A stretch of DNA of 64,000 bases from Rhizobacter sp. (GTDB lineage: Bacteria; Pseudomonadota; Gammaproteobacteria; Burkholderiales; Burkholderiaceae_C). The DNA lies in contig JANXZA010000072.1 of assembly GCA_025355745.1 (NCBI GenBank), positions 12,850-76,849 on the forward strand, written 5' to 3'. The notes under the pieces are model-generated. The model saw nothing but the letters and a program-made list of their open reading frames with translations, ran no database searches and was not told where the DNA came from. A program made the position numbers and the translations under genes. Positions within the stretch are counted from its first letter, which is position 1. Each line of letters opens with the position of its first letter. Shown in pieces: positions 5,589-19,916 of this stretch.

Positions 5589-5616
5589 GACGCGAGCTTG
5601 CCCGGTCGAACCCGAG

Positions 5617-5660
5617 CCGGCAATTCGCGATTCATGAACCCGCTCTTCGGTGCGTGCGAA
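5617..5660. promoter_or_regulatory. Putative LysR double box (two TTCG-N7-[C/T]GAA sites) overlapping a candidate leftward -35 (TTGCCG)
   Basis: TTCGCGATTCATGAA (5624-5638) and TTCGGTGCGTGCGAA (5646-5660) both fit T-N11-A and lie between the divergent hydratase and LysR genes. 30/43 nt match 19874-19916. Confidence 0.55.
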
Positions 5661-5687
5661 CGGGCGCTGCGGCGGGTTGGAAATTCG

Positions 5688-5798
5688 AACTCACGCACCG
5701 CCGAGGCATGGAGTACGCAGAGTTGCGCAGAGTGAATTCAAAAAAAGTTTCTTGCTCTGCGGTCCTCTGCGTACTCCGCGCCTCTGCGGTGGTGAGTT
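5688..5798. repeat. ~110-bp long palindromic element, family A (AACTCAC...GTGAGTT), copy 1
   Basis: Arms CACCGCCGAGGC..GCAGAG and CTCTGC..GCCTCTGCGGTG flank an AT-rich loop; the same termini occur at 6822 and 21058. Confidence 0.85.
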
Positions 5799-5869
5799 GG
5801 CTCTCGGCACAGGGATCACCTACGCCACGCATAGACTCACGGCCTTGCAGCGAGGAGCCCCCGGACCCC

Positions 5870-6781
5870 ATGGCGATGCACTTCGATCTGGTCGACCTGC
5901 GCCTGCTGGTGCGGGTCGCCGAGGCCAATAGCCTGACGCGTGGCGCCGAGCTGGTGCACATGGCCGTGCCGACTGCCAGCACGCGCGTCAAGAACATCGA
6001 AGACAGCATCGGCACCAAGCTGTTCTACCGCACCAGCCAGGGCGTGACGCTGACGCCGCCGGGCCAGGCCTTCGTGCACCACGCGCGCCTGGTGCTGGCG
6101 CAGCTCGAACACCTGAGCGGCGATTTGCAGGAGTACGCGAAGGGCATCAAGGGCCACCTGCGGGTCTTCGCCAACACCACCGCGCTGGGCGAGTTTCTGC
6201 CGCCGGTGTTGCGCACCTATCTGCTGACCCACCCGGACGTGAACATCGACCTGCGCGAGCGCCTCAGCCACGACATCGTGCGCGCCGTGTCCGAGGGCCA
6301 GACCGACATCGGCATCGTCGCCGGCACGGTCCGCACCGAGAACCTCGAAGTAATCCCGTACCGCCGCGACCGGCTCGTGCTGGTGGTGCCGAGCGGGCAC
6401 GCGATGGCCGGGCTGGCGTCGGTCGACTTTGCCGACACGCTGGCGCTGGACCACATCGGCCTGCACGAGGCGAGCGCGATCCACGCCTTCCTGCGCCAGA
6501 TCTGCCACGGCCTGCACCGCAGCCTGCGGCTGCGCATCCAGGTCGGCAACTTCGAAGCCGCCTGCCGCATGATCGAAGCGACCGTGGGCGTGGGCGTGCT
6601 GCCCGAATCCGCAGCGCGCCGCCATGCGCAGACGATGGCGATCCGGATCGTGCCGTTGCGCGATGAGTGGTCGGACCGCGCGATGCACATCTGCGTGCGC
6701 AGCCTGCAGGCGCTGCCGGCGTTTGCCCGCGATCTGGTCGCGCTGCTGGTGGAAGACGCGAAGGCCGCGCCTGCCGATTGA
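5870..6781 (+). CDS. LysR family transcriptional regulator
   Basis: MHFDLVDLRLLVRVAEANSLTRGAELVHMAVPTASTRVKNIEDSIGTKLFYR (HTH) plus substrate-binding domain. GAGGAG RBS precedes ATG 5870 (alternative 5876). Confidence 0.95.
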   Translation: MAMHFDLVDLRLLVRVAEANSLTRGAELVHMAVPTASTRVKNIEDSIGTKLFYRTSQGVTLTPPGQAFVHHARLVLAQLEHLSGDLQEYAKGIKGHLRVFANTTALGEFLPPVLRTYLLTHPDVNIDLRERLSHDIVRAVSEGQTDIGIVAGTVRTENLEVIPYRRDRLVLVVPSGHAMAGLASVDFADTLALDHIGLHEASAIHAFLRQICHGLHRSLRLRIQVGNFEAACRMIEATVGVGVLPESAARRHAQTMAIRIVPLRDEWSDRAMHICVRSLQALPAFARDLVALLVEDAKAAPAD

Positions 6782-6924: not shown

Positions 6925-6950
6925 AATTGAGTTGAGTTGAGTTCGAACTC

Positions 6951-8780
6951 TCAAGCAACCTTGCGCGGCGCAGTGGAAAACTCCATCTTGTACGCCAGCC
7001 ACCAGATCACGAACACGCCGAGCGTCCACCAGATGATCTGCCAGGCCCAGAGCGACGGAATGCCGAGCTTCCACGCGGCAATGCCCGCGCCGGGCGCACC
7101 GAAGAGGTCGTTGCCGAGCACGGCGCCAGGGCCGATCGCGAAGAACATCCAGCCCAGCATCAGGGCCCAGACCGCTGGCCGCATTGCCTGCTTGGACGCC
7201 GGCAGCCCGGCGCGTTCGCGCAGGTAGCGGTGGAAGCCGTCGCGGTGGCGCCGGCCCGCACCGCCGCGCGTGGCCAGCGAGACCACGGCGCAGGTCAGCA
7301 GGTTGCAGAAGATGCCCCAGCCGGCGGAGTGGATCGTCCAAGGCCAGCGGCCCCAGGGCAGCTCGAAGCCGAAGAAGTGCGCGACCGCCGCACCGACCGG
7401 CTCGGTCAACAGCACCGCGACCAGGCCGACGCACAGGCCCAGCGTGGCCGCTGGACGCGACACCCACGGCAGCCAGCACACGCCCGCCAGCACTGGCCAC
7501 AACTGCAGCGCGAAGGCCAGCGCCAGGCCGCCGAGGCGCACCTGCGCCACCGGCGTGAAGGTGGCCATCAGCAGCGCGGCGATGAAGATCAGCGCCATCG
7601 TGGCGCGGGCGATGCGGCGCTGCGCACGGTCGTCGGCGGCTGGGCGAAAAAAGCGCTTCCAGACATCGAGCGTGACCATCGTCGCCGTGGTCGAGACACA
7701 GCCCGCAGCCGCCATCTGCACCGCCGCGATGACGCCGATCGCCAGCAGGGCCGACAGCCAGGGTTGGCGCGGCGCCAGCGCCAGGAGGGCGGCGGTGGTG
7801 GCGTCCACCGGGGGCGCGTCGGGCCGCAGCAGCCCCCCCAGGCCATAGGCGGTGGCGAAGAACAACAACACCAGCCCGACGATGGCGCCCGTCGCCCACA
7901 CCTGCTGCGCCGCGAAGCCCCGCGTGTCGCGGCAACTGAAGCCGAGCATGCTGAACGAGGGCGAGGCCTGCAGGCCCATCAGTGCGAACGAATAGGTCAG
8001 GATCATCGCTGCGGTCCAGAGGCCGCCGGCCGGCGCCTGCTTGCCCAGGCCGGCGGTGAACTGGATCACGCCGGGGATCTCGAACAGGCTTGGCGCCGCA
8101 GCCGGGCCAGGCGCGGCGAGCCGGGCCAGTGCGGCATTGAAGGCGCCGAAGCCACCGATTTGCGCGTAGGCCAGGCAACCCAGGCCGACCATGCCGGCCA
8201 GCAACAGCAGGCATTGCAGCGCCGCCATGGAAGCAACGCCGCGCAGGCCGCCGAGGAAGGCGCAGACGAAGATGGCGAAGCCCAGCACCCACATCGCAGG
8301 AATGGCACCGACCGCGCCGTGCGTCAGGGTCTGGAGCAACTGGCCGCCGGCGGCGAGTTGCAGGCCGACGAACGGAATCGCGAAGACCAGCGCGATCAGC
8401 ACCGTCAACAGGCGGATCAGTTCACCCTGGTAGTAGTCGGCGAACATCGCGCCGGGCGTCGTGTAGCCGAAGCGCTGGCCGAGCAGCCATTGGCGCTTCA
8501 GGAACAGGATGCCGGCGAGCGGAATGACGATGGCCGCCAGCGCGACTTCACCGTAGGCGAAGCCGCCGAGTTGCAGCAGCGACGGGTGGCCGAGCACGAT
8601 CCAGCCGCTCAGCGACAGCGCCGTGGCCGACAGCACGAAAACCCAGGCCGGCGTTTGCCGGCCGGCCAGGAAAAAGTCGGCTGCGGTGCTTGATCTGCGG
8701 CCCGCCGCTACCGCCCAGTAGAGGCAGAAGGCGAGCAGCAAGGCGCCGAACGCGAGCAGCCAAACGACGTCTTGCGACAA
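6951..8780 (-). CDS. Sodium:solute symporter (SSS) family transporter
   Basis: About 13 hydrophobic segments; AADFFLAGRQTPAWV, ATALSLSGW, GYTTPGAMFADYY. TTG start after a GGAGA RBS. Confidence 0.88.
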   Translation of the reverse strand: MSQDVVWLLAFGALLLAFCLYWAVAAGRRSSTAADFFLAGRQTPAWVFVLSATALSLSGWIVLGHPSLLQLGGFAYGEVALAAIVIPLAGILFLKRQWLLGQRFGYTTPGAMFADYYQGELIRLLTVLIALVFAIPFVGLQLAAGGQLLQTLTHGAVGAIPAMWVLGFAIFVCAFLGGLRGVASMAALQCLLLLAGMVGLGCLAYAQIGGFGAFNAALARLAAPGPAAAPSLFEIPGVIQFTAGLGKQAPAGGLWTAAMILTYSFALMGLQASPSFSMLGFSCRDTRGFAAQQVWATGAIVGLVLLFFATAYGLGGLLRPDAPPVDATTAALLALAPRQPWLSALLAIGVIAAVQMAAAGCVSTTATMVTLDVWKRFFRPAADDRAQRRIARATMALIFIAALLMATFTPVAQVRLGGLALAFALQLWPVLAGVCWLPWVSRPAATLGLCVGLVAVLLTEPVGAAVAHFFGFELPWGRWPWTIHSAGWGIFCNLLTCAVVSLATRGGAGRRHRDGFHRYLRERAGLPASKQAMRPAVWALMLGWMFFAIGPGAVLGNDLFGAPGAGIAAWKLGIPSLWAWQIIWWTLGVFVIWWLAYKMEFSTAPRKVA

Positions 8781-8838
8781 GGATGTCTCCAGGTTGCGGT
8801 TCGGCAGGCCGGCGGGCGCGGTGGCGGGACGCGGCGAC

Positions 8839-9267
8839 CTAACGCTTGCGCACGCGGTCCAGCAGGTCGATCGAACCGCGCACGCCGTGGTGGGCCACCA
8901 GGTAGAACGCGAAGCAGGCGAACAGCAGGCTGAAGCCCGCCAGGCCGATCGCGATGTTCACGCTCTCGAAGTGCGGCAGGACCAGCCAGCTGAGCACAAA
9001 GCCGAGCACCGAGACGATGAAGGCGATAAAGCCCAGCGCGACCTCGCCTTTCGAGAAGCGGGTGCGAAACAGGTGGTTGATGACGACGTGGGCACCGAAC
9101 GCTGCGGCCAGCAGCGCGAAGCCGAACAGGCCGGCGAGCAGATCGGACGCGCTGAAGCCCGTCAGCGTGAAGCACAGGCCGAACGAGCCGAAGAATGCCC
9201 AGTTCGTCGTCACCGCGAGGCGGCGCTCGCCGAGCGGATCAGCCGTTCGAGGATCGTCCTGGTTCAT
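8839..9267 (-). CDS. Small 4-TM hypothetical membrane protein
   Basis: Four hydrophobic helices in 142 aa; starts 14 bp after the flotillin stop; coding-like codon usage. Confidence 0.75.
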   Translation of the reverse strand: MNQDDPRTADPLGERRLAVTTNWAFFGSFGLCFTLTGFSASDLLAGLFGFALLAAAFGAHVVINHLFRTRFSKGEVALGFIAFIVSVLGFVLSWLVLPHFESVNIAIGLAGFSLLFACFAFYLVAHHGVRGSIDLLDRVRKR

Positions 9268-9281
9268 CGCGTGCGCTCTCG

Positions 9282-10979
9282 TCAATGACGTTCAGCGTCG
9301 TTCGAATCGGGATACTCGCCGACCGGAAAGATCGTCAACCCGCCGGTCGAGGTCATCGCGCTCGGCGACATGCCGATCTCGCGCAGCAACCCGTCCACGA
9401 ACGGCACCTGGGCCCGATAGCGCAGCGCCGAATTGACGGCCTGATCGGCGAGGCTGCCGACTCGCTTGCCGCTGCCACCACCACCATCGCCCGCCCCGGC
9501 GCCCTCCCCCTGACCCTGCGCCACCGCCCCGCTCAAGCCCGGCAGCCCGTCGACCTGAAGAATCTTGATCGAGTCGATCTTCTCCATCGGCTTCACGCTC
9601 TCGCGGATGATGCTCGGCAGGCTGCGGATCAGGTCTTCCTGCAGCGCGCTGCGCCGGCTGGCTTCGGAGCGCATGTTCTCGGCCTCGTTCAGCTTGCGCC
9701 GGCCTTCGGCGTCGATTTCGTAGCGCACCTTCGCGGCTTCGGCCGCAGCCACCTGCGCCTGCGCCCGGTCGCCCGCCGCCCGCAACTCGGCCGCCGCGCC
9801 GGTGGTGAGCTTGATCGCGTCGCGCTCGGCGTGCTGCGAGGCTTCCACCAGGTCGATCAGCTTGCGGCGCTCGGCGATGGCCGTGTCGCGCACCGTGTTG
9901 ACGCGCTCGGTGGCCTCGACCGCATCGGCCCGCGCGACCTCGGCTGCCGTCTGCGCCTCCGACTGGGCACGCGACTTCTGCGCCACCGCGATGACGCGCT
10001 CCTGTTCCTCCAGTTCGAGGGCGCGGCGGCGCCTGATCTCCAGGGTCTGCAAGTCCTGCTCGCGCAGCAGTTGCTCCGATTCGACCGCCCGCTCCTGCTT
10101 GATGCGCGACTTCTCGATCTCTTCCTTGACGCGGATCTGCGCGGCCTCGATGTCGTGGTCGCGGTCGGTCTTCTCGCGTGCGATCTCGGCGCGCTGCTGG
10201 GCCCGGCGCATCGCGATCTCGCGCTCCTGGGCCATGCGCGCGTACTCGCCTTCCTGATCGATCGCCAGGCCGAGCTTCTCGGACTCGAGGTTCTTCGCGC
10301 GGATCGCGATCTGCGTGTCCTTCTCGATGTCGTTGCGCTTCTTCTTGCGCGTCTCGATCTCCTCGGTCAGGCGGGTCAGGCCTTCGGCGTCAAAGGCGTT
10401 CGACGGGTTGAACTGCTTCATGTCGGCCTGGTCGACGCTGGTCAGCGACACCGCTTCCAGCTCCAGGCCGTTCTCGGTCATGGTGTGGGCGACCAGCTCG
10501 CGCACGCCGCGCACATAGGCGCTGCGGCCTTCGTGGATCTGCTCCATCGTCATGTTGGCTGCGGTGGCGCCCATCGCATCGACGAAGCGGCCCTGCACCA
10601 GCTCGCGCAGCTTCTCGGGGTCGAGCGTGCGGGTGCCCAGGGTGCGCGCGGCAGCGGCCACGCTTTGCGGGTTCGGGATGACGCGCACGAAGAACTCGAC
10701 GATCACCTCGATGCGCATCCGGTTCTTCGTGATCAGCGACTTGTCGCCGGCGCGTCGCACCTCGATGCGCAAGGTGTTCATGCTGACCTCGGCCACGTCG
10801 TGCACGATCGGCAGCACGAACGCGCCGCCGCCCATCACCACCTTTTCGCCGCCCCAGCCGGTGCGCACGAACGACAGGTCCTTCGACGAATGCCGGTACA
10901 GCCAGTGCAGCAGGTACACGACCACCGCCACGACGATCGCCAGCAAGACAATGATTGCAATGATGTCCGCGCCATTCAT
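9282..10979 (-). CDS. Flotillin / SPFH (band 7) family protein
   Basis: N-terminal TM anchor, then FVRTGWGGEKVVMGGGAFVLP, MNTLRIEVRR, FNPSNAFDAEGLTRL and a long EA/ER-rich coiled coil. GAGGAG RBS before ATG 10979. Confidence 0.93.
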   Translation of the reverse strand: MNGADIIAIIVLLAIVVAVVVYLLHWLYRHSSKDLSFVRTGWGGEKVVMGGGAFVLPIVHDVAEVSMNTLRIEVRRAGDKSLITKNRMRIEVIVEFFVRVIPNPQSVAAAARTLGTRTLDPEKLRELVQGRFVDAMGATAANMTMEQIHEGRSAYVRGVRELVAHTMTENGLELEAVSLTSVDQADMKQFNPSNAFDAEGLTRLTEEIETRKKKRNDIEKDTQIAIRAKNLESEKLGLAIDQEGEYARMAQEREIAMRRAQQRAEIAREKTDRDHDIEAAQIRVKEEIEKSRIKQERAVESEQLLREQDLQTLEIRRRRALELEEQERVIAVAQKSRAQSEAQTAAEVARADAVEATERVNTVRDTAIAERRKLIDLVEASQHAERDAIKLTTGAAAELRAAGDRAQAQVAAAEAAKVRYEIDAEGRRKLNEAENMRSEASRRSALQEDLIRSLPSIIRESVKPMEKIDSIKILQVDGLPGLSGAVAQGQGEGAGAGDGGGGSGKRVGSLADQAVNSALRYRAQVPFVDGLLREIGMSPSAMTSTGGLTIFPVGEYPDSNDAERH

Positions 10980-11034
10980 GCTCTGCTCCTCGTTCAAGAA
11001 TTCAATGCCGGATTGATGCCGGCTCACTGCCGGT

Positions 11035-11739
11035 TCAATGGCTCGCCGTGCCCGCTTCCCGCATCCCCACCGCCAGGAACGTCAGGCCGAATGCGACCAG
11101 GTTGACGAGGTCGGCGAGGTTGTAGGTGGTGTGCAGATAGCGCAGCTCGGTCGGCCCGGTGAAGGCGGCGATGAAGAAGCACAGCGGGTAGATCGCCCAG
11201 CCGATCGTCATGATCAGGCGCAGCCAGAAGTAGCCCTGCTGCACGGCTTCGCTGCCATGCCGCGCGCTGCGCTCGCTGAGCTTGCCGAAGAAGACTTCGC
11301 CCAGGATGTAGAGCCACATGGCCAGCGAGATCAGGAAGCCCAGCGTCGGGTGCATCAACTGCGTCTCGCCCATGAAGCGCGCCAGCACCAGCAGCACCGC
11401 AGCCACCAGCAGGCGCCAGAACACGCCCACCGGCACCGGCGCGAACGCGCGCACGAAGAAATAGACGGCCACCACCTGCAGCGGCAGCGTCAGGAACCAG
11501 CCGACGTAGCGGTGAATCATCGTCAGCTGGCCGGTCGCCAGCCACACATCGGTGGCCAGCATGTAATGCGCGGCCGAGATCAGCGTGGCGATGCCGGCGA
11601 GCGCGATCGGCAGCTTCCAGCGCCGCTGCACCCAGGCCGTGCCGGCGAGCAGCAGCACGGTGGCCGCGAACGTGGCGATCATGAGCAGCACGAAGGTGCC
11701 GCTGGCGATGTCTTGCGCTCCGAGTAACTTGACGATCAT
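11035..11739 (-). CDS. Proteorhodopsin-family opsin lacking the retinal-binding lysine (flotillin-associated rhodopsin-like)
   Basis: 7 TM. AAHY, HRYVGWFLTLPLQ, GWAIYP and YNLADLVNLVAFGL align with the proteorhodopsin motifs FWHY, FRYIDWLLTVPLL, GWAIYP and YNLADFVNKILFGL; K is replaced by L and D by G. Confidence 0.9.
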   Translation of the reverse strand: MIVKLLGAQDIASGTFVLLMIATFAATVLLLAGTAWVQRRWKLPIALAGIATLISAAHYMLATDVWLATGQLTMIHRYVGWFLTLPLQVVAVYFFVRAFAPVPVGVFWRLLVAAVLLVLARFMGETQLMHPTLGFLISLAMWLYILGEVFFGKLSERSARHGSEAVQQGYFWLRLIMTIGWAIYPLCFFIAAFTGPTELRYLHTTYNLADLVNLVAFGLTFLAVGMREAGTASH

Positions 11740-11755
11740 GTCCCGGCCTCTTGAT

Positions 11756-13177
11756 CTAGATTTGCGTTCGGATGTGCGGCGACCTGGCGTAGAGCGCCAC
11801 CATCGGCAGGATCAGCAGCCCGAACACGAACTGCTGCCACTCGAACTTCAGGCCGATGCCGACCAGGAACGAGGTCAGCACCTGCAGCACCAGCACGCCG
11901 ATGACGGTGAAGCCGTAGCCGCCGTAGCCGCCGAGCAGCGAGGTGCCGCCCATCACCACCGCCGCCAGTGTCATGAACAAGTACGGGTTGCCCACGCCGA
12001 TGAAGCCGCCCCCGCTCCAGCCGAGCAGCAAGGCGCCGGTGAGGGCCGCCACGGCGCCGCTCACCATGTAGGCGCCGACCCAATAGCGGCGCTCGGAGAT
12101 CATCAGCCGCGCCGCCGACAGGCGATTCCCGCCGAGCGCATAGAGGTGGCGCCCATAGACGCTGTTCTTCAGCCCGTAGACCAGCAGCGCGGCCAGGCCG
12201 ATCCAGATCAGGATCACCGGCGGCAGCGGCAGGCCGAAGGTGCGGCCGTTCATCGCGGCGAGGTTGCGCAGCCAGTCGGGTACGCTGCCGAAGACATTGC
12301 CGCTGTAGGCGCTGCCGATGCTGGTGAGAATCTGCGTCAGGCCGGAGATCGCGAAGCCGATGCCGAGTGTCAGGATCAGGGCTTGGCCTTGCAGCCGAAA
12401 GCTCAGCAGACCGTTGATGAAACCCACCAGCGCGCCGAGCGCGATGATCAGCAGCACTGCGATCCAGCCCGGCACGCCCAGGCCGATCAGGTACAGCAGG
12501 CCGACGTTCGACGAGCCGATCACGAACGGAATCGACAGGTCCAGCCCGCCAAGCAGCGCGACCAGCGTCTGGCCCACGCAGGCCAGGCCGAGGAACGACG
12601 CGAAGACCAGCATCGACTTGATGTTCGTCGTCGAGGCGAAGCCCTCGACCGTGAACGAGCCGATCGCGAACAGTGCGGCCAGCACCGTCAGGCCGATGAA
12701 GGCGCTGCGGTTGCCCTCGAACACCTTGCTGACCTTGACGGCAAAGACCAGCAGCGCGGCGACCACCAACAACGCGATGACGTTGCCCAGCGTGAAGAAG
12801 GCCGTGGCCGTGACCGAGGCGATCAGGAACACCGCGAGCAGGATCAGCAAGGCGATCAACAGGGCGCGATTGCGCAGCAGGAATTGCTTGAAGGCGGCGC
12901 GCGCACCGGGCCGCTCGCTGGCATCCGGCGCACCCGCTGATTCGGCCGCTGCCGTTGGCTCACGGGACGACCCACCGGACGGCTCACCCATCGCCCCCGG
13001 CAGTGCGAACGAATTCCAGGCCCAGACCACCAGCGCGAAGGTGGCGGCGGTGTAGAAGATGACGTTCTGCGCAGGCTGGGATTGCCACAGGCCCAGGATC
13101 AAGCCGAGCCCGGCGACGAGCCCGGCCGTCGCCAGGCCGACCCATTTGCGCAGCGCGAAGGAAGCGGTATCACGCAT
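11756..13177 (-). CDS. Sugar-type (RbsC-like) ABC permease with N-terminal extra membrane region
   Basis: GQTLVALLGGLDLS, YGRHLYALGGNRLSAARLMI, LAAVVMGGTSLLGGYG; about 150 extra N-terminal residues. Confidence 0.88.
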   Translation of the reverse strand: MRDTASFALRKWVGLATAGLVAGLGLILGLWQSQPAQNVIFYTAATFALVVWAWNSFALPGAMGEPSGGSSREPTAAAESAGAPDASERPGARAAFKQFLLRNRALLIALLILLAVFLIASVTATAFFTLGNVIALLVVAALLVFAVKVSKVFEGNRSAFIGLTVLAALFAIGSFTVEGFASTTNIKSMLVFASFLGLACVGQTLVALLGGLDLSIPFVIGSSNVGLLYLIGLGVPGWIAVLLIIALGALVGFINGLLSFRLQGQALILTLGIGFAISGLTQILTSIGSAYSGNVFGSVPDWLRNLAAMNGRTFGLPLPPVILIWIGLAALLVYGLKNSVYGRHLYALGGNRLSAARLMISERRYWVGAYMVSGAVAALTGALLLGWSGGGFIGVGNPYLFMTLAAVVMGGTSLLGGYGGYGFTVIGVLVLQVLTSFLVGIGLKFEWQQFVFGLLILPMVALYARSPHIRTQI

Positions 13178-14549
13178 GGCTCAGCAGCCAGACACCGAGC
13201 ACGATGACGGCGGCAAACCCGCCGTAGAGCACCGGCGTCATCGTGCGGGCACGCGTCTGCGAGACGGTGACGCGCAGGAACAGCAGCAGCGCGAGCAGTA
13301 GCAGCGCGGCCAGCGCGGTGGTGCGTTGCAGCGCGGTCAATGAGAACGAGGCGCCCGCCGAGGGCGCATCGAAGATGAACGAATCGACCGGACGCGCGGT
13401 GGCGCGCGGCGCTTGCGTCTGCGTCTGTGTCTGCGCCTGCTTCTGCGTCTGCGGCGCATCGAGCGCGACCCTTTCGGCCGGCGGGTACTTCGCATAGTCG
13501 TGCTTGGCATGCAGCATGACCCCTGCGAACAGCAGCGACAGCACGACGAAGACGAGGAACGGCGACAGCCGTCGCGCATGCCGCTGCACATGCGGCAGCG
13601 CCACCGTCAACAGCAGCGACAGCACCAGGATGACGCCGTAGGCCAGGTCGGTGACGAAGCCCTGCACCATGCCGAAGTTGAAGGTCGCGAGCACATAGCC
13701 GATCAGGAACAGGTTCAAGGCGCCGAGCAGCGAGCCGATCACCCCGCCGCGCCCACCGGCCAGGCTGGTGCCACCGAGCACCAGCGCGGTCACGGCGATC
13801 AGCGTGTAGGTCGTGCCCTGCGTCGGGTCGCCCGAGCCGATCAGCGCGGTGTAGCAAAGCGCGGCCAGGCCGATGAAGGCGCCCGAGATGCAGTGCGCGC
13901 CGATGCGCACGATGCTGATGCGAACGCCGCTGGTGTAGGCGGCGCGCTCGTCCGACCCCATCAGGCGCAGGTGGCCGTAGAACGCGCTGCGCGTGAAGAG
14001 CAGCCACGCGGCGGTGCACACGACCAGAATCAGCAGCACCGGCGACAGCAGGGTGTCGCCCAGGCCCCAGGGCAGCATCCATTCCGGTGCCGAGCCGCCC
14101 GGCCGGGGGAGGATCACGAGGTTGATGCCGGACAGCGCGAGGTAGCCGCTCAGCGCCACGATGATGGGCTGCACGCGCACGAAGATGATCACCAGCGCCA
14201 TCAGCAACTGATACGCCACTCCCACCGCGATGACGTAGGCGAACACCGCCAGCGGCGAGGTAACGAGGTCCAGGCCGCTGAACTGCACCAGCGTCACGTT
14301 GATGAAGCCGAGCAAGGGGCCGACCGAAAGATCGACAGTGCCGCGCCCGGCCATCGCCGTGGCCATCAAGCCGTAGGTGGCCAGCACCAGCGGCGCGGTC
14401 ACGAGCACCGCGCTGCCGATGCCGGCGCTGGAGATCAGGCTCGGGCCGCGCAGCACGGCGACGATCAGCAACGCGAACAGCATCAGGATCGGCACCAGCA
14501 GGTAAGTGCTGGTCGCCGTGGAGGGCAGGTGGACGCGCGCGTCGGCCAT
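13170..14549 (-). CDS. Sugar-type (RbsC-like) ABC permease with C-terminal extra membrane region
   Basis: GTVDLSVG, LRLMGSDERAAYTSGV, VTALVLGGTSLAGGRGG; about 130-aa C-terminal extension with a QTQTQ linker; overlaps the next gene by 8 bp. Confidence 0.88.
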   Translation of the reverse strand: MADARVHLPSTATSTYLLVPILMLFALLIVAVLRGPSLISSAGIGSAVLVTAPLVLATYGLMATAMAGRGTVDLSVGPLLGFINVTLVQFSGLDLVTSPLAVFAYVIAVGVAYQLLMALVIIFVRVQPIIVALSGYLALSGINLVILPRPGGSAPEWMLPWGLGDTLLSPVLLILVVCTAAWLLFTRSAFYGHLRLMGSDERAAYTSGVRISIVRIGAHCISGAFIGLAALCYTALIGSGDPTQGTTYTLIAVTALVLGGTSLAGGRGGVIGSLLGALNLFLIGYVLATFNFGMVQGFVTDLAYGVILVLSLLLTVALPHVQRHARRLSPFLVFVVLSLLFAGVMLHAKHDYAKYPPAERVALDAPQTQKQAQTQTQTQAPRATARPVDSFIFDAPSAGASFSLTALQRTTALAALLLLALLLFLRVTVSQTRARTMTPVLYGGFAAVIVLGVWLLSHA

Positions 14550-14621
14550 GGGGTGGCGATGCTGGGTTCAGGTCGGCGGGGTGGCGGGCAAGTGGCGCGT
14601 GGGTGTCAGCTCACCTGCGGC

Positions 14622-15686
14622 CTAGCGCCGCGCGCGGCTGCCGCGTCCCGCGTCGACGTCGAGCACGCGCACCGAACCCCGGTCGGTGCCGGCGGGAGTC
14701 GGGCTCCTGTACGAAGGCGATTCGGCACTGGCGGTGGCCCGGCCTTGCGTTGCGCGCTCGGCGCCGCGACCGGGCTCATCACGGCCCGTGTCGCGGCCGC
14801 TGTCACGTCCCGCGCGCTCCGTCGATCGCCCGGCTTCGCGATCCGACTGCACGATCTTCTTCAACACCGGCATCAAGTATTCCTTGAACAGCTCCGGGTT
14901 CTCGGACATCGGGAAATGACCGATGTTTTCCATGATGATGCACTCCGAGTTCTTGACCTTGTCGGCCGTCTGCTGCGTCATCTCGGGCGTGCAGGCGAAG
15001 TCGTAGACGCCGGTCATGAAGTAGATCGGAACGCGCCCGGAGATCTTCCGGCACAGCTCGCGGTAGTCGTGGTCGACGCTGTAGAAATGCAGGTCGCCCT
15101 TGAACACGCCGGGGCCGCCCTGCGCATAGAACCACCAGGTTTCCCAGCGGTAGTCGTTCGGGCTTTGCGGCGCCATCAGGCCGAAGGTGGCCGTGGCGCA
15201 GACCTCGCCGCCATGGATGTGCGGGTGCATCAACGGGTCGATCCACCAGCCCGGCGAATGGTCGCAGGCCTCGATCGCGATCAGCGCCGAGACTTCGTCT
15301 TCATAGTGCAGCGCCAGCGGCAGGCAGACGTTGCCGCCCATCGAGCTGCCCATGATGACGGGCTTTTTCAGCTCCAGCGCGCGGCAGAACGCCATCACGA
15401 ACTCGGCATAGAACTTGGAGGTGAGCTTGTATTCCTCTTCTTCCTTGTAGAAGTCGCCCGGCGGGTTCGATTTGCCGTGGCGTGGCAGGTCGAACGCGAT
15501 GACGTGAAAATTCTTCGCGATCTCCGCATCGCAGAGTTGATGCCGCCACTCGCGCCCGTCGGTGCCTGCGGTGTGCAGGCACACGAGCGGAATGCCCTGG
15601 CCGTTTTCCTCGTAGTAGGTGCGGTAGGTTTCGCCTTCGCACTGCACATAGACGTAGCGCCCAACGATCGGGTCGAACTTGGCCAT
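14622..15686 (-). CDS. Alpha/beta hydrolase with low-complexity C-terminal tail
   Basis: LVCLHTAG, AFDLPRHGKS, GSSMGG nucleophile elbow, GHFPMSENP. AAAGGA RBS before ATG 15686. Confidence 0.9.
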   Translation of the reverse strand: MAKFDPIVGRYVYVQCEGETYRTYYEENGQGIPLVCLHTAGTDGREWRHQLCDAEIAKNFHVIAFDLPRHGKSNPPGDFYKEEEEYKLTSKFYAEFVMAFCRALELKKPVIMGSSMGGNVCLPLALHYEDEVSALIAIEACDHSPGWWIDPLMHPHIHGGEVCATATFGLMAPQSPNDYRWETWWFYAQGGPGVFKGDLHFYSVDHDYRELCRKISGRVPIYFMTGVYDFACTPEMTQQTADKVKNSECIIMENIGHFPMSENPELFKEYLMPVLKKIVQSDREAGRSTERAGRDSGRDTGRDEPGRGAERATQGRATASAESPSYRSPTPAGTDRGSVRVLDVDAGRGSRARR

Positions 15687-15749
15687 TTTCGGATTCCTTT
15701 TGAGGGGTGACGGGCGGCGGGTGGCAGGCAGCAAGGCTGGGCCGGCGCG

Positions 15750-16154
15750 TCAGACTTCGCGCATCACCGCGAGCATCCAGGACAGCGCGCGCAGGTTCTG
15801 CCAGAACGGCTTGGTGTCGCCTTCGATCTTCAGCCTGCCGTGCAGCGGGTGGGCCATGGCCCAGATGTCGTTGTACATGGGCGGCGGCATCGGCTGCACG
15901 AAGCGGCTCCACGATCCCGCCGGGGCCCGCAATGCAAACTGCCAGCCCATCATGTTCGCGCTCACGCCTTCCGAGACCTGCTGGATGCGGCCCTCGCGCA
16001 CCACGACCAGGTAGTCCCGGTCGTCGATGCCGACGACGAAATTGACGCTGAAGAAGCGGCCGATGACGCGCAGCACGCGGTCGTCGTTGACCTTGTTGGC
16101 CCAGGATTCGAACCAGTCAAGGTCCAGCGGAGCCGATGCGGTGTACCGAGTCAT
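15750..16154 (-). CDS. Hypothetical protein, possibly SCP2/sterol-carrier-like fold
   Basis: 134 aa; the pattern FVVGID..YLVVVREGRI..WQFALRA..W..GRLKIEGD..F resembles SCP2-like domains (by eye). Confidence 0.6.
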   Translation of the reverse strand: MTRYTASAPLDLDWFESWANKVNDDRVLRVIGRFFSVNFVVGIDDRDYLVVVREGRIQQVSEGVSANMMGWQFALRAPAGSWSRFVQPMPPPMYNDIWAMAHPLHGRLKIEGDTKPFWQNLRALSWMLAVMREV

Positions 16155-16194
16155 GGTCTGGGTTCCTCAGTGGGGGTCGGTCGATTCCCTATTC

Positions 16195-16234
16195 CTCCCC
16201 CTCTCCCGCTCGCGGGAGAGGGTTGGGGCGAGGG
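16195..16234. repeat. REP-like hairpin, family B (CCCTCTCCC...GGGAGAGGG)
   Basis: CCCTCTCCCGCTCGCGGGAGAGGGTTGGGGCGAGGG; a related copy in the opposite orientation lies at 23824-23885. Confidence 0.7.
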
Positions 16235-16270
16235 CGGTTGGTGGCGCAAACATACTGCTGATCGTTTCCG

Positions 16271-18487
16271 TCACGCGGTCGGCAACGGCTGCGAGGCCGG
16301 CCCGTAGAGGCCGGTCAGGCTCGCGGTCTTGATCGTCATCGGCAACACCGCAGTGACGAAATCAACGTAGTTCGCCGTCTCCGCAAGCTGCAGCGTCTCG
16401 CACTTCAATGCGTACAACGTGAAGACGTAACGGTGCGCCGCGTCGGGCGGCCACGGCCCGCCGTAGCCTTTGCCGAAACCGGGAACGGCGAAGGTCACGA
16501 AGTCGCTGTTCAGCTCCTTCATGCCGGGCGGCAGCAGGCTCTTCGCACCGGCCCCTTCGACAAGCTTGCGCGTGCCGGCCGGAATGTCGTGCGCCAGCCA
16601 GTGGGCGAAGGCGCGCGGGAAGTTGAAGTGCGCCGGAAGGTCGGGGTCGGTGATGGCGAGCGCAAAGCTTTTCGTCCCCTTCGGCGGGTGCTCCCACAGG
16701 ATCGGCGGGGAGACGCGGTTGTGTTCGGCGTAGCGCGCGGGAATGCGCGCACCTTCGTCGAACGCGGGTGACCACAGCTCGAACAGGCCGTCGGCGAGGG
16801 GCTCGTCAGCCGGTGCTTTTGGCGGCGTCGAGTCCGCCGTGGCCGGGCCGCTGGCTGCCGGCGGCGAAGCGCCGTGCGGCCGGGCAGCGTGCGCGCCGCG
16901 CGCCTGGCCGAACATCGCCTGCAGCACCGCTGCGGGGTGAACCGCAGCGCCCGTCAGTTCCTCGAAGATGCCGCCGCCGCGGAACACCAGCACACGCTCG
17001 CACAGACCGACCAGTTCCTCAATCTCGCTGGACAAGTAGACGACCGATTTGCCGGTCGCCGCGAAGTCCGTCAGGTACTGGTACAGATCGCTCTTGGCGC
17101 TGACGTCGACGCCGCGTGCCGGATCGTTGAGCACCAGAATCGTCGGGTTCAGCGCGAACGCGCGGCCGATCAGCACCTTCTGCTGGTTGCCGCCTGAAAG
17201 CGACGTTATGCGGTCGCTGCGGTCGCCCATGCGAACCGCGAGTTTGCGCGCCTCCCAGTCGAACACGCTGCCCAGTGCGGCCCAGTCGAGGATCTTCAGC
17301 TTGCCGGCCCGGCTGCTGCTGCGGTAGCGCGGCAGCAGCAGGTTCTCGAAGATGCCCAGGTTCGGGAAAATGCCTTCGCGCTTGCGGTCGCCAGACACAT
17401 ACGACACGCCGCAGTCGGCCGCGTCGGCCAGGCTGCGCACCGGCACGAAGCCCAGGCCCGGGTGCAACACCGTCGGCGCGCCATGAGCGGCACGGTCCAC
17501 TCCCGCCAGGATGCGCACGAACTCGCTCTGGCCCTGGCCGTCGAGACCGGCGATGCCGAGAATCTCGCCGCGATGCAGGTGGAACGACACGTCCGGCCCG
17601 CCCGGCCAGACCTTCAGGCCGGCGGCCTGCATCAGCAGCTCGGGTGCGTGTACTGCGGCGTCGGTGGCGGCGCGCGCCGCATGGGCGGCCCCGCCTGCCG
17701 CGGTCGGAACCTGGACCTGGGCGCTGGCCCTGCCCGTCATGAGCTGCAACAGGTTCTTTTCGGTGATCTGCTGGCGCTCCAGCACGCCGACATCGCGCCC
17801 GTCGCGCAGCACCGTGGCGCGATCGGAGATCTCGATCAACTCAGCAATGCGGTGCGTGACGATGATGATGGCCGAGCCTTCATCCCGAAGCTGGCGCAGC
17901 TTGGCGAACAGGCGCTGTGTCGAGTCGAGATCGAGCGCCGCCGACGATTCGTCGAGGATCAGCGCGCGCGGCTTGCACAGCAGCGCGCGGCCGATCGTGA
18001 TCCATTGCTTCAGGCCGAGCGGCAGGGTGCCGACGAGCGTGCCGGGGTCGATCGGCAGGCCGGTCAGCTCAAGCATCAGGGCCTGGGCGGCCGCCACCTT
18101 GGCGCGCTGCGGCATGGCACGCGAGAACAGGGCATCGGCACCGAGGAAGAGGTTGTCGACGACCGAGCTTTCGTCGGCCACCATCACCTCCTGGAAGACA
18201 GTGGCGATGCCGACCTGACGCGCCTCGTGCGGCGAGGTCGGCGTGTGGCCGAAGACCAGCACCTGGCCGCTGTCGGGTGGCAGCACGCCCGACAGCACTT
18301 TGGCCAGGGTGCTCTTGCCGCAGCCGTTACCGCCGACGATGGCGTGGATCTCGCCGCGCGAGGCGCTGAAACTGCAGCCGTCCAGCGCCTTCGTCACCCC
18401 GAAGGTCTTGCGCACGCCGACCACGAAAATGTCGCGCGGCGCGGCCGTTCGTGGGGCTTCGCGTTCAAGCGCCGGAGTGTCGAGCAT
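16271..18487 (-). CDS. Sugar ABC ATP-binding protein (tandem NBD) fused to a C-terminal YbhB/YbcL (PEBP) domain
   Basis: Walker A GGNGCGKST, LILDESSAALD and LSGGNQQK, then an Ala/Pro linker and FELWSPAF..GARIP..SPPILW..PKGTKSFALAITDPD..FAHW..YGGPWPP..HRYVFTLYAL. Start uncertain (18487 chosen). Confidence 0.88.
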   Translation of the reverse strand: MLDTPALEREAPRTAAPRDIFVVGVRKTFGVTKALDGCSFSASRGEIHAIVGGNGCGKSTLAKVLSGVLPPDSGQVLVFGHTPTSPHEARQVGIATVFQEVMVADESSVVDNLFLGADALFSRAMPQRAKVAAAQALMLELTGLPIDPGTLVGTLPLGLKQWITIGRALLCKPRALILDESSAALDLDSTQRLFAKLRQLRDEGSAIIIVTHRIAELIEISDRATVLRDGRDVGVLERQQITEKNLLQLMTGRASAQVQVPTAAGGAAHAARAATDAAVHAPELLMQAAGLKVWPGGPDVSFHLHRGEILGIAGLDGQGQSEFVRILAGVDRAAHGAPTVLHPGLGFVPVRSLADAADCGVSYVSGDRKREGIFPNLGIFENLLLPRYRSSSRAGKLKILDWAALGSVFDWEARKLAVRMGDRSDRITSLSGGNQQKVLIGRAFALNPTILVLNDPARGVDVSAKSDLYQYLTDFAATGKSVVYLSSEIEELVGLCERVLVFRGGGIFEELTGAAVHPAAVLQAMFGQARGAHAARPHGASPPAASGPATADSTPPKAPADEPLADGLFELWSPAFDEGARIPARYAEHNRVSPPILWEHPPKGTKSFALAITDPDLPAHFNFPRAFAHWLAHDIPAGTRKLVEGAGAKSLLPPGMKELNSDFVTFAVPGFGKGYGGPWPPDAAHRYVFTLYALKCETLQLAETANYVDFVTAVLPMTIKTASLTGLYGPASQPLPTA

Positions 18488-18616
18488 GGTCAAGGCCGAC
18501 GAATCAAGCGTGGAGCGTTCGCGTGTGCGGGCGGGCGGATCAGGGCTGGCAGCGGCGACGGGTTGTGAGGCCGGTCGTGGGCGCAAAGCGCAGCAACTCA
18601 CCGCACAAATTCACCG

Positions 18617-19807
18617 TCACGGCTTGAACTTCTCCGGGTCGGCCGGGCGCAGGAAAAAGGCGTCGAGCTTGGCGGTGCTGGCCCAACGGTTGATGCCGAT
18701 GCTGAGCCACTTGTCGGAGTCTTCGCTGCAGTCGGCGGGCACGGATTTCTCGATGTCTGCGTAGGTCAGCTTGACCGGCTCGACCAGCACCGACTGGACC
18801 TTCGGGCCCTGGCCCTGCAACGTGCGCATCATGATGTTCCAGGCCAGCTCCATGTCGTCGGCGGGCGGCCAGGCCTGGATCGCGGCGCTGATGTACTTCG
18901 GGTTCTTGCGCCAGTAGCACAGTGCGCCGAGTTCACCACCGACCGTGATCGGGACCATCTTGCGCCCCGATTGCTTGAGCGCGCGCAAGCCGCCGAGTTC
19001 GGACGCTGACTGGATCACGACGCCGTTCAATTCGCCCGGGTTGGTGGCGAGCCACTTCTGCACCTCGGCCTGCGCAACCTGATCGGTCCACATGCCGGCG
19101 ACGCTGCCGACGACCTTGATGCCGGGGTATTTCGCCAGGGCCGCTTTCACGCCCCGGTCTTGCGAGTCGGACGCCGACGTGCCGGGGATGCCCTCGACCA
19201 CCAGCACATTGCCCTTCTTGCCGATTTCTTCGGCCATCCAGGTGCCGAGCTGGAAGCCGCCGAGCTGGAAGTTGGCCGACGAGTTGACGGCATATGGCGA
19301 GGTCAAATAGCCGGTCGCCGAGAAGGTCGGGATGCCCTTGTCGTACGCGACCTTGACGGTCTGGTTCAGCGCCGTCGGGTTCGAGCAGCAGACGATGATC
19401 GCGTCCACGCCCTGGTCGATGAGCTGGCGCATCTGCTGGATCTGCGTCGCGTCCTTCAGGTTCGACTGCGTGATGATCACTTCCTTGATCAGGCCGAGCT
19501 TTTTCCACTTCGGAATCAGCTCGTTCTGCAACCGGTCCATCACCGCCGCGCGCCAGGTGTTGCCGGCGTAGGAACTGGCATAGCCGATGGTCCACGGCGG
19601 GCCTTTCTTGGGCTTCCAGTCGCGGTACGCGCTGGGGCCGAGCGGCTGGGCCGGGTCCATCATGTCGCCTGAGTACAGGCGGGTGCGAACGTCGGCCGGA
19701 AGCTCGTCGACGCCGGTGGCGAACGCTGCGCCCGACGCGCCAGCCACCAGCCCGGCCAGCGCCAAGGCCCTGACACCGCGACGTTGTTGCATGCGAAGTT
19801 GGTTCAT
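18617..19807 (-). CDS. Sugar-type ABC periplasmic substrate-binding protein
   Basis: RRG..ALALAGLVAGASGAAFA signal; IGYASSYAGNTWR, QIQQMRQLIDQGVDAIIV, VEGIPGTS..DR. GGGAG RBS. Confidence 0.9.
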   Translation of the reverse strand: MNQLRMQQRRGVRALALAGLVAGASGAAFATGVDELPADVRTRLYSGDMMDPAQPLGPSAYRDWKPKKGPPWTIGYASSYAGNTWRAAVMDRLQNELIPKWKKLGLIKEVIITQSNLKDATQIQQMRQLIDQGVDAIIVCCSNPTALNQTVKVAYDKGIPTFSATGYLTSPYAVNSSANFQLGGFQLGTWMAEEIGKKGNVLVVEGIPGTSASDSQDRGVKAALAKYPGIKVVGSVAGMWTDQVAQAEVQKWLATNPGELNGVVIQSASELGGLRALKQSGRKMVPITVGGELGALCYWRKNPKYISAAIQAWPPADDMELAWNIMMRTLQGQGPKVQSVLVEPVKLTYADIEKSVPADCSEDSDKWLSIGINRWASTAKLDAFFLRPADPEKFKP

Positions 19808-19873
19808 GTCATCTCCCGGGCTTTTGTGAAGGCGTCTTTGCGCCTGCATTCATGTTCGGGCAACCCTGCCGAT

Positions 19874-19916
19874 CCGGCAATTTCCAATTTTCGAACCCCG
19901 CCTTCGGCAATTGCGA
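19874..19916. promoter_or_regulatory. Second copy of the putative LysR double-box motif
   Basis: CCGGCAATT-N10-GAACCC-N4-TTCGG-N4-TGCGA, with the same spacing and orientation as 5617-5659. Confidence 0.5.

What the first reader, a model, noticed from the sequence alone, without database searches (positions are those of the whole stretch)
5617..19916. The same 43-bp promoter motif precedes the itaconate-type operon and the opsin/ABC operon
Seen: 5617-5659 and 19874-19916 share CCGGCAATT-N10-GAACCC-N4-TTCGG-N4-TGCGA (30/43 identical by hand count). Both have the same orientation relative to a leftward operon, two T-N11-A boxes 22 bp apart, and TTGCCG on the minus strand as a candidate -35. Known: LysR regulators typically use paired recognition and activation boxes. 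Inference: the LysR at 5870 may co-regulate the opsin/flotillin operon, which would hint at a C5-dicarboxylate-related substrate. Alternatively the second copy controls the divergent dctP.
Basis: partly seen in the sequence, partly recalled or inferred. Interest (0 to 1): 0.62.

Follow-up and report, generated by a model that had tools for sequence, protein, structure and literature searches.

The report
Shared LysR operator before two operons
The same promoter-plus-operator module precedes an itaconate-type CoA operon and a distant ABC-transporter/opsin/flotillin operon. Comparison with other genomes indicates one LysR regulator controls both, which gives the odd transporter operon a functional context.

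Summary
Sites 5617-5659 and 19874-19916 share 30 of 43 bases, in the same register relative to a leftward operon. No shuffle of the two regions reaches that (0 of 2000). Window-wide the chance is about 0.05. The motif occurs only twice in the 4.5-Mb genome.

Site 1 is the conserved promoter and operator of the Ich-type operon: -35 TTGCCG, 17 bp, -10 CAAGCT, and two T-N11-A dyads 22 bp apart.

A weight matrix built only from such operators in other genomes ranks site 2 first and site 1 second among 9 million positions. Site 2 is conserved with its -35/-10 spacing upstream of the binding-protein gene in four genomes.

In metagenomes, orthologues of this transporter operon lie directly divergent from orthologues of this LysR. 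Others lie directly behind Ich/PrpD or Ict/Ccl genes, several with the same motif.

The co-regulation reading is therefore supported, though only computationally. dctP may also be served: in a sister genome its orthologue is divergent from a second Ich-type operator.

This is an ordinary LysR-type design. Its value is the link it gives to an unusual operon.

The parts
5617..5659 (-). Site 1 as reported: operator plus -35 of the Ich-type operon promoter
   Evidence: 30/43 identical to site 2. Conserved in G021, G041, L019, L020, L022, G020, G005 and G008 upstream of Ich orthologues.
5595..5600 (-). -10-like hexamer CAAGCT of the Ich operon. It ends 6 nt before the ATG at 5588, so a leaderless mRNA is predicted.
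   Evidence: GAGCTTGC is conserved, with a 17-bp spacer to TTGCCR, in G000, G021, L020, L022, G020, G005 and G008. It is a weak match to the consensus; the sigma-70 scan finds nothing at 9/12.
5618..5623 (-). -35-like hexamer TTGCCG of the Ich operon
   Evidence: Conserved as TTGCCR with fixed 17-bp spacing to CAAGCT.
5624..5638 (.). Proximal dyad TTCGCGATTCATGAA (T-N11-A), centre about -43 of the predicted start site
   Evidence: It aligns with TTCGCATTTGTGAAA, the best-conserved block upstream of LysR orthologues in Delftia-, Acidovorax- and Alicycliphilus-type loci.
5646..5660 (.). Distal dyad TTCGGTGCGTGCGAA (TTCG-N7-CGAA), centre about -65
   Evidence: TTCG lies 22 bp from the first TTCG in 14 of the 15 aligned operators; L094 has TTTC at that place. 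TTCG-N7-CGAA or -TTAA is kept in L017-L022, G008 and G021 site 3.
1..5588 (-). Target operon A. It encodes a MaoC-like hydratase (Ich-like, 4701-5588), an acyl-CoA dehydrogenase, a family III CoA-transferase, an MmgE/PrpD protein and an HpcH/CitE-like lyase (runs off the window).
   Evidence: Pfam. NCBIfam matches lie below the equivalog cut-offs; RipC_Ccl scores 170 bits against 375.
5870..6781 (+). LysR-type regulator, the proposed binder of both sites
   Evidence: HTH_1 plus LysR_substrate domains. It is the only copy of its kind in the genome; the next paralogue is 40% identical. Orthologues are divergent from SBP operons in L125, L128, L175 and L177.
5689..5797 (.). REP/MITE-like palindromic element inserted between the operator and the lysR promoter; approximate bounds. 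It is not part of the operator.
   Evidence: Absent at this place in G021, G041 and L019. The core CTCTGCGGTGGTGAG occurs about 120 times in the genome.
19874..19916 (-). Site 2 as reported: operator plus -35 of the SBP/ABC/opsin/flotillin operon promoter
   Evidence: Rank 1 of 9.03 million positions with a matrix from foreign Ich-type operators. Conserved in G021, G041 and G020.
19852..19857 (-). -10-like hexamer GAACAT of operon B
   Evidence: GAACAT, AAGTAT, GAGTAT and GAACAT occur at a fixed 17 bp from the -35 in G000, G021, G041 and G020. L125 has GAACAA.
19875..19880 (-). -35-like hexamer TTGCCG of operon B
   Evidence: TTGCCG, TTGCTT, TTGCCT and TTGCCT in the four genomes.
19881..19895 (.). 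Proximal dyad TTTCCAATTTTCGAA, centre about -43. Its left arm is degenerate.
   Evidence: Same register as the site 1 dyad. The right arm (T/C/G)GAA and the ATT core are conserved in four genomes and in L125, L150, L163, L164, L173 and L196.
19903..19917 (.). Distal dyad TTCGGCAATTGCGAT, centre about -65 for operon B and about -58 for dctP
   Evidence: The left arm CTTCGGC is invariant in four genomes; the right arm is good only in G000. Read on the minus strand, it gives the top hit of the matrix built without the G000 clade.
6951..19807 (-). Target operon B. It encodes an SBP (Peripla_BP_4, 18617-19807), an ABC ATPase fused to PEBP, a 134-aa protein, an alpha/beta hydrolase, two permeases, a rhodopsin-like protein, a flotillin, a DUF3040-like protein and an SSF symporter.
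   Evidence: Pfam. The ATG at 19807 with a GGGAGA ribosome site is read.
19986..21029 (+). Orphan dctP (TRAP solute-binding protein), divergent from operon B; a possible second beneficiary of site 2
   Evidence: Pfam DctP. There are no dctQM genes beside it. The G021 orthologue is divergent from an Ich-type operator.

Best explanation
Sites 1 and 2 are two copies of one promoter-operator module bound by the LysR-type regulator encoded at 5870-6781.

Read in the direction of the leftward operon, each module has four elements. A distal T-N11-A dyad sits near -65. A proximal dyad sits 22 bp closer, near -43. It abuts a weak -35 (TTGCCG), which lies 17 bp from a weak -10 (CAAGCT for the Ich operon, GAACAT for the transporter operon).

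By analogy with other LysR-type activators, a tetramer would occupy both dyads. On binding an inducer, presumably a C5-dicarboxylate or its CoA-pathway intermediate, it would recruit RNA polymerase to these poor promoters. One signal would then switch on both the catabolic CoA operon and the SBP/ABC/hydrolase/opsin/flotillin/SSF operon.

Shown here: the sequence match, its rarity, conservation of both modules, and recurrent gene linkage of regulator, pathway and transporter.

Inferred: the start sites, binding by this protein, activation rather than repression, and the identity of the inducer.
For: 1. The match is 30/43, is unique in the genome and is beyond shuffles.

2. Upstream regions of LysR orthologues (74-98% identical) in several genera share TTCG-N18-TTCG with a TTCGCATTTGTGAAA-like dyad. 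This identifies site 1 as the family's operator.

3. A matrix made only from operators of other genomes (L020, L022, G020 left and right) ranks site 2 first (29.1 bits) and site 1 second (24.8). Background starts at 22.0, over 9.03 million positions.

4. The pattern GCARTT-N4-WWT-N3-RAA-N7-TTCG has 9 hits in 35 genomes of the genus and 0 hits for the reversed control. Six hits lie at Ich-type promoters and three at SBP-operon promoters.

5. Site 2 with its -35 and -10 is a conserved block in G000, G021, G041 and G020. It is about 81% identical between G000 and G020 (my count), while both flanks diverge or carry indels.

6. The order Ich operon, LysR, tail of operon B is conserved in G000, G021, G041 and L019.

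7. In metagenome contigs the reciprocal-best orthologue of this LysR is directly divergent from the SBP operon in L125, L128, L175 and L177. L125 carries GGAATTCGCATTTTTTGAACCCCGCCTTTTG with a canonical TTCG arm.

8. Thirteen of 55 loci with at least 1 kb of upstream flank have Ict-Ccl, Ich/PrpD or the LysR orthologue directly upstream. L150, L163, L164, L173 and L196 carry the motif in the same register; in four of them (all but L196, whose flank is too short to show a neighbour) it lies in the gap between PrpD and the SBP gene.
Against: - There is no experimental binding, start-site or expression evidence.
- In G000 the LysR gene is 13 kb from site 2, not divergent from it.
- The promoter-proximal half-site of site 2 reads TTTC (TTGC or TTGG in relatives). 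Ich-type operators have TTCG, or TTCA in one case.
- The right arm of the distal dyad is not conserved in G021, G041 or G020.
- With GCAATT left out of the matrix, neither site stands out in the plus orientation.
- The pattern was written knowing both sites, so its hits at site 2 orthologues are partly circular.
- Fourteen of 55 orthologous SBP operons are paired with a LacI-type regulator instead. The regulatory link is therefore lineage-specific.
- Both promoters fall below the sigma-70 scan threshold.
Confidence: 0.68

Rival explanations
1. Site 2 is a LysR operator, but its main or additional target is the divergent dctP at 19986. The TRAP binding protein would belong to the dicarboxylate regulon, and the transporter/opsin operon would be affected only incidentally or not at all.
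For: - In G021 the closest dctP orthologue (83%) is divergent from a degenerate second Ich-Ict cluster with an Ich-type operator between them. Its right flank (MlaD) is syntenic with G000.
- The matrix built without the G000 clade gives its top genome hit on the minus strand of 19890-19921. That places the better dyad on the dctP side.
- The good right arm of the distal dyad is specific to G000, the only genome where dctP is adjacent.
Against: - Site 2 is conserved with the SBP promoter in G021, G041 and G020, where no dctP lies next to it.
- The inverted match scores poorly in those genomes: 0.1, 8.1 and -3.9 bits.
- The distance from the dyads to the likely dctP -10 (CAGAAT, 19956-19961) gives centres near -58 and -80. 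This differs from the geometry in G021 and from the family's -43/-65.
- In metagenomes the LysR orthologue pairs with the SBP operon, not with dctP.
Confidence: 0.3
2. Site 2 is a real, conserved promoter region but is bound by another factor, such as a different LysR-type paralogue or an unrelated regulator. The likeness to site 1 would then reflect common descent of a promoter module or similar promoter architecture, without shared control.
For: - The proximal half-site lacks the CG kept in nearly all Ich-type operators.
- The invariant stretch GAACCCCGYCTTCGGC includes spacer bases that a LysR dyad would not need.
- A second LysR (40% identical) with a CoA-transferase paralogue exists on C207.
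- SBP orthologues elsewhere use LacI-type or other operators.
Against: - No close paralogue of the regulator exists in G000 or G021.
- Orthologues of this very LysR, reciprocal best by a wide margin, are the divergent neighbours of SBP operons in four lineages.
- The motif upstream of distant SBP genes has the same TTCG-N7-TTAA distal dyad as the Ich-type operators of G008 and G021.
Confidence: 0.17
3. The resemblance is a chance match between two AT-richer promoter regions of a GC-rich genome.
For: - Window-wide, shuffled intergenic sets reach 30/43 in 2 of 40 trials.
- Site 1 has another 30/43 hit in the genome.
- One unrelated pair in the window reaches 31/43.
Against: - 0 of 2000 shuffles of the specific pair reach 30/43.
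- Matrices built from foreign sequences rank the two sites 1 and 2 genome-wide.
- The motif is conserved in orthologous promoters and recurs with LysR, Ich and PrpD neighbours.
Confidence: 0.04

Closest known systems
Classical LysR-type (LTTR) promoter architecture: recognition site with a T-N11-A dyad near -65 and an activation site near -40, as in BenM/CatM, CbbR and OccR (from general knowledge and the LTTR review PMC11495319 listed; not read in detail)
   Same: Two T-N11-A dyads lie two helical turns apart, abutting a weak -35. The regulator gene is divergent from one target. One regulator serves more than one operon through similar sites, as BenM and CatM do.
   Different: Here the promoter-proximal dyad, not the distal one, is the best conserved across genera. 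The second target is 13 kb away and convergent with the regulator gene. Binding was not tested.
Itaconate-responsive LysR regulators with itaconate degradation genes: Yersinia ItcR with ripABC, and the Pseudomonas aeruginosa PA0877 / PA0878-PA0883 cluster (from memory of Sasikaran et al. 2014 and Hanko et al. 2018; the latter is cited in PMC7057948, and is not held)
   Same: A LysR gene is divergent from an operon with a MaoC-like hydratase, acyl-CoA dehydrogenase, family III CoA-transferase, MmgE/PrpD and a CitE/HpcH-like lyase. This is the gene content of the Pseudomonas-type cluster.
   Different: Orthology to those regulators and enzymes was not tested. The NCBIfam RipC_Ccl match is far below its cut-off. 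No ABC transporter, opsin or flotillin operon is, to my knowledge, part of the described itaconate regulons.
CUT2-family sugar ABC importers under LacI-type repressors (RbsB-, XylF- and YtfQ-like)
   Same: The SBP is Peripla_BP_4 with BPD_transp_2 permeases and a tandem ATPase. Fourteen of 55 orthologous loci have a divergent LacI-type gene.
   Different: In this clade the LacI gene is absent and a LysR-type operator sits at the promoter. The operon also carries a PEBP fusion, a hydrolase, a rhodopsin-like protein, a flotillin and an SSF symporter.

Membership tests
LysR-type regulator operator (recognition and activation site pair) | T-N11-A inverted-repeat box or boxes | tested here: met
   Site 1 has TTCG-N7-TGAA and TTCG-N7-CGAA. 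Site 2 has TTTC-N7-CGAA and TTCG-N7-CGAT. In each site the boxes are 22 bp apart.
LysR-type regulator operator (recognition and activation site pair) | Boxes centred near -65 and near -40 of the regulated start site, abutting the -35 | tested here: inconclusive
   Centres fall at about -43 and -65 if the conserved hexamers TTGCCG-N17-CAAGCT/GAACAT are the promoters. Start sites are not mapped and the consensus scan finds no promoter.
LysR-type regulator operator (recognition and activation site pair) | Cognate LysR gene adjacent to, and usually divergent from, the target | tested here: met
   Site 1 is divergent from the LysR at 5870. At site 2 the LysR is not adjacent in G000 (13 kb away). 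Its orthologue is directly divergent from the SBP operon in L125, L128, L175 and L177.
LysR-type regulator operator (recognition and activation site pair) | Motif conserved upstream of orthologous targets and rare elsewhere | tested here: met
   There are 9 hits in 35 genomes, all at Ich-type or SBP promoters, and 0 control hits.
LysR-type regulator operator (recognition and activation site pair) | Physical binding by the regulator and an inducer-dependent change of transcription | not testable with these tools
   This needs EMSA or footprinting and expression data.
Itaconate degradation cluster (Ict, Ich, Ccl) | CoA-transferase, itaconyl-CoA-hydratase-type MaoC protein and citramalyl-CoA-lyase-type HpcH/CitE protein in one operon | tested here: met
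   Pfam CoA_transf_3, FAS1_DH_region/MaoC-like and HpcH_HpaI, plus Acyl-CoA_dh and MmgE/PrpD.
Itaconate degradation cluster (Ict, Ich, Ccl) | Proteins reach curated equivalog thresholds for the named enzymes | tested here: not met
   RipC_Ccl scores 170 bits against a cut-off of 375. The CoA-transferase is closest to the succinate-glutarate and succinyl-CoA:mesaconate models, both far below cut-off. The hydratase has no NCBIfam hit. 'Itaconate-type' is therefore a resemblance, not an assignment.
Interspersed repeat (REP/MITE) as the source of the similarity | Many copies in the genome | tested here: not met
   The motif has 2 copies. The true REP-like family (about 120 copies) is a different sequence, lying beside site 1 rather than in it.

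The most novel reading that the evidence does not exclude
The sugar-type CUT2 ABC importer with its fused PEBP domain, alpha/beta hydrolase, lysine-less rhodopsin-like protein, flotillin and SSF symporter is an inducible uptake and processing module. Its substrate would be itaconate-like C5-dicarboxylates, or an ester or conjugate of them that the hydrolase releases. In several Burkholderiales lineages it would belong to the same LysR regulon as the Ich/Ict/Ccl CoA pathway.
Probability: 0.35. Interest if true: 0.65.

Novelty: new member of a known kind. Interest (0 to 1): 0.5.

Why it matters
A LysR regulator with two similar operators is textbook biology. The value here is the link it provides.

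It ties an unusual and otherwise uninterpretable operon to a defined catabolic pathway and to a single, testable regulator. That operon combines a PEBP-fused ABC ATPase, a retinal-lysine-less opsin, a flotillin and an SSF symporter.

The link recurs as gene neighbourhood in independent lineages: LysR divergent from the SBP gene, and Ich-PrpD or Ict-Ccl directly upstream of it. The association is therefore unlikely to be an accident of one genome.

It also yields concrete reagents: two roughly 45-bp operators and a regulator for inducer screening. Finally, it suggests that a 'sugar-type' binding protein family may serve organic-acid catabolism.

Tried and rejected
- Raw 43-mer identity genome-wide. 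It is not decisive, because site 1 has another 30/43 hit.
- My first alignment of LysR upstream regions used the wrong strand for loci reported on the minus strand and was meaningless. I redid it.
- Sigma-54 and ECF-type readings (GAACC-N16-GCGA on the plus strand). I considered both by eye and dropped them. The GG/GC spacing is wrong, and the putative -10 is not conserved in G021, G041 or G020.
- LacI-type operator. The TTTGCAGAA/TTCTGCAAA repeats occur in L109, L110 and G013, which have a divergent LacI gene. They are absent from site 2.
- Repeat element. The strong repeats found are a separate REP-like family beside site 1, not the motif.
- Matrix without the GCAATT columns. It loses discrimination for both sites, so much of the signal lies in the -35-adjacent part.
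- Homology between the distal dyad of site 2 and the dctP-proximal dyad of G021:C106 (TTGGCAAACGCCGAT). It is suggestive by eye, but I could not establish it.
- RNA evidence for start sites.
- Hanko et al. 2018 on ItcR is not held.
- Searching the metagenome records for the LysR beyond the 2.5-kb flanks is not possible.
Full report
**The observation**

The two 43-mers are 30/43 identical without gaps. The match continues 5 bases to the left (CCGAnCCGGCAATT).

Shuffling the two intergenic regions never gives 30/43 (0 of 2000). An all-against-all comparison of shuffled intergenic segments of the whole window reaches 30 in 2 of 40 trials, so the look-elsewhere p is about 0.05. As a plain 43-mer search the result is borderline: site 1 has one other 30/43 hit in the genome.

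**Genes**

Left of site 1, on the minus strand, lie five genes. They encode a MaoC-like hydratase, an acyl-CoA dehydrogenase, a family III CoA-transferase, an MmgE/PrpD protein and an HpcH/CitE-like lyase. A LysR gene starts at 5870 on the plus strand.

Left of site 2, on the minus strand, lies a second operon. It encodes:
- a Peripla_BP_4 binding protein (ATG at 19807 with a GGGAGA ribosome site);
- a tandem ABC ATPase fused to a PEBP domain;
- a 134-aa protein and an alpha/beta hydrolase;
- two permeases;
- a bacteriorhodopsin-like protein, a flotillin, a DUF3040-like protein and an SSF symporter.

To the right of site 2 is an orphan dctP. NCBIfam places none of the pathway enzymes above an equivalog cut-off; RipC_Ccl scores 170 bits against 375. 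'Itaconate-type' is thus a resemblance in gene content, not an assignment.

**Site 1 is this LysR family's operator**

A scan of species genomes returned 80 loci with LysR orthologues 74-98% identical, from Rhizobacter/Methylibium-like and many Comamonadaceae-like Burkholderiales. Some have a divergent Ich operon (L017-L022). Others have a divergent family III CoA-transferase operon (Delftia-, Acidovorax- and Alicycliphilus-type loci).

In both groups the upstream region shares one register. A TTCGCATTTGTGAAA-like dyad is followed 22 bp later by a second TTCG. Site 1 fits this register.

In the Ich-type loci the element GAGCTTGC (the reverse of CAAGCT) and the hexamer TTGCCR keep a 17-bp spacing. 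This defines a weak, presumably activator-dependent promoter. The consensus promoter scan finds nothing there. In G000 and its nearest relatives CAAGCT ends 6 nt before the ATG at 5588, which predicts a leaderless mRNA.

Genome G020 has mirrored modules that drive the Ich operon and an SDR-aldDH-LysR operon.

**Site 2 belongs to the same class**

I built a weight matrix from orthologous operators that excluded the whole G000 clade. Its top hit among 9.03 million positions lies in the site 2 region, on the minus strand at 19890-19921.

A second matrix used only the Ich-type operators of other genomes (L020, L022, and the G020 left and right modules). Background starts at 22.0.

The pattern GCARTT-N4-WWT-N3-RAA-N7-TTCG was written with both sites in view. 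It has 9 hits in 35 genomes of the genus and none for the reversed control. Six hits are at Ich-type promoters (G000, G021 twice, G020, G005, G008). Three are at SBP-operon promoters.

**Conservation of site 2**

The SBP operon occurs in G021, G041 and G020 (SBP 90-95% identical). In each, a block running from the -10-like hexamer through CTTCGGC is conserved, with a fixed 17-bp spacer. The 5' UTR carries a 170-bp indel in G020, and the right flank is unrelated.

The inverted high score is specific to G000. The relatives score 0.1, 8.1 and -3.9 bits, because the right arm of the distal dyad is not conserved there.

**Gene linkage**

The order Ich operon, LysR, SSF end of operon B is shared by G000, G021, G041 and L019.

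A metagenome scan gave 80 loci with SBP orthologues 67-88% identical. In L125 (88%), L128, L175 and L177 the gene directly divergent from the SBP operon is a LysR. Its best match in G000 is the 5870 gene by a wide margin: 127 against 58, 206 against 83, and 365 against 159 bits. L125 carries GGAATTCGCATTTTTTGAACCCCGCCTTTTG, followed by a -35/-10 pair in the same geometry.

Among 55 loci with at least 1 kb of upstream flank:
- 6 have Ict-Ccl directly upstream on the same strand;
- 5 have PrpD and/or Ich directly upstream;
- 2 have the LysR orthologue;
- 14 have a divergent LacI-type gene.

Loci L150, L163, L164, L173 and L196 carry ATTnGTwTATyCyGAA-N7-CTTCG-N7-TTAA in the same orientation and register as site 2. 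In L150, L163, L164 and L173 it lies in the gap between PrpD and the SBP gene; the upstream flank of L196 is too short to show what precedes it. Its distal dyad is the one seen in the Ich-type operators of G008 and G021.

Genomes with a LacI neighbour (G013, G003, L109, L110) lack the motif.

**dctP**

dctP is adjacent to site 2 only in G000. In G021 its closest orthologue (83%) is divergent from a degenerate second Ich-Ict cluster, with an Ich-type operator in between. It is followed by the same MlaD gene as in G000.

The predicted geometry towards dctP puts the dyad centres near -58 and -80 of a CAGAAT -10. This fits the family pattern less well than the geometry towards the SBP operon (-43 and -65).

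**Weak points**

- Nothing was measured.
- The start sites are inferred from conserved hexamers that match the consensus poorly.
- The promoter-proximal half-site of site 2 reads TTTC (TTGC or TTGG in relatives) instead of TTCG.
- Much of the matrix signal lies in GCAATT, which overlaps the -35.
- The binding protein is of the sugar type.
- In many lineages the operon answers to a LacI-type regulator.

**Verdict**

The interpretation that one LysR controls both operons is supported at about 0.68. This is a known kind of regulatory design. Its interest lies in connecting an unusual transporter/opsin/flotillin operon to an itaconate-type CoA pathway.

Noticed in passing
window 5689-5797, 6825-6925, 21066-21172 (approximate): A palindromic REP/MITE-like element of about 110 bp, built of CGCAGAG/CTCTGCG repeats and ending in CCTCTGCGGTGGTGAGTTG. 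The core occurs about 120 times on 77 contigs. One copy lies between the operator and the lysR promoter and is absent there in G021, G041 and L019. It may have uncoupled LysR autoregulation in this strain.
   Followed up: partly
window 5588-5600: The conserved -10-like CAAGCT ends 6 nt before the ATG of the Ich-like gene, and no ribosome site is visible. This predicts a leaderless mRNA in G000, G021 and G041. L020 and G021:C106 have a leader of about 22-35 nt.
   Followed up: partly
genome contig C233:18236-18262, minus strand (outside the window): This is the only other genome hit to RTT-N4-WWT-N3-RAA-N7-TTCG, and it is also the 30/43 match to site 1. It is intergenic and followed by TGGCGC-N16-TACACT, upstream of a Peripla_BP_6 binding-protein gene. 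It may be a third operator of the same regulon.
   Followed up: partly
L113 (G021:C106) 1-1430: A second Ich-like gene (63% identical) is truncated and abuts the C-terminal part of an Ict-like gene, as if the dehydrogenase and the Ict N-terminus had been deleted. It is divergent from the dctP orthologue, with an Ich-type operator at 1280-1309.
   Followed up: partly
L108 (G020:C274) 5461-5638: Two mirrored operator/-35 modules sit in one intergenic region. One faces the Ich operon. The other (TTCGAGAAATACGAA-TTGCCG-N17-TAGATT) faces an SDR-aldehyde dehydrogenase-LysR operon. The same aldDH-LysR order occurs in L023 (Variovorax ginsengisoli) and L024.
   Followed up: partly
window 19986-22903: dctP is an orphan. 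No DctQ or DctM domains appear in the ORFs that follow it. It is followed by a REP-like element and a convergent MlaD-domain gene.
   Followed up: partly
L100, L101, L102 (dctP paralogues in G013, G020, G021): The paralogous dctP genes carry a palindrome AAATGTGGAAnTCCACAAnT about 24 bp upstream of a CAGAAT/GAGAAT -10. This looks like a CRP/FNR-type class II site. The window's dctP keeps the CAGAAT but not the palindrome.
   Followed up: no
L109, L110 and G013 (L015), upstream of SBP orthologues: Repeated TTTGCAGAA-N-TTCTGCAAA / ATGCAAAT boxes lie next to a divergent LacI-family gene. They are probably the LacI operators of the transporter operon in those lineages.
   Followed up: no
L128 489-797: In one metagenome lineage a small HiPIP-like gene (twin-arginine-type leader, CGNCQF motif) lies between the divergent LysR orthologue and the SBP gene.
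   Followed up: no
window about 32245 and about 47952: A 31/43 match between two stretches that I had treated as intergenic. Both are G+C-rich and look like unrecognised coding sequence. This is probably chance or codon-level similarity.
   Followed up: no
genome contig C207:4685-5500 and 11433-12551: A second LysR (40% identical to the 5870 protein) lies on the same contig as a family III CoA-transferase paralogue (47% identical to the Ict-like protein). This may be a parallel regulator-pathway pair.
   Followed up: no
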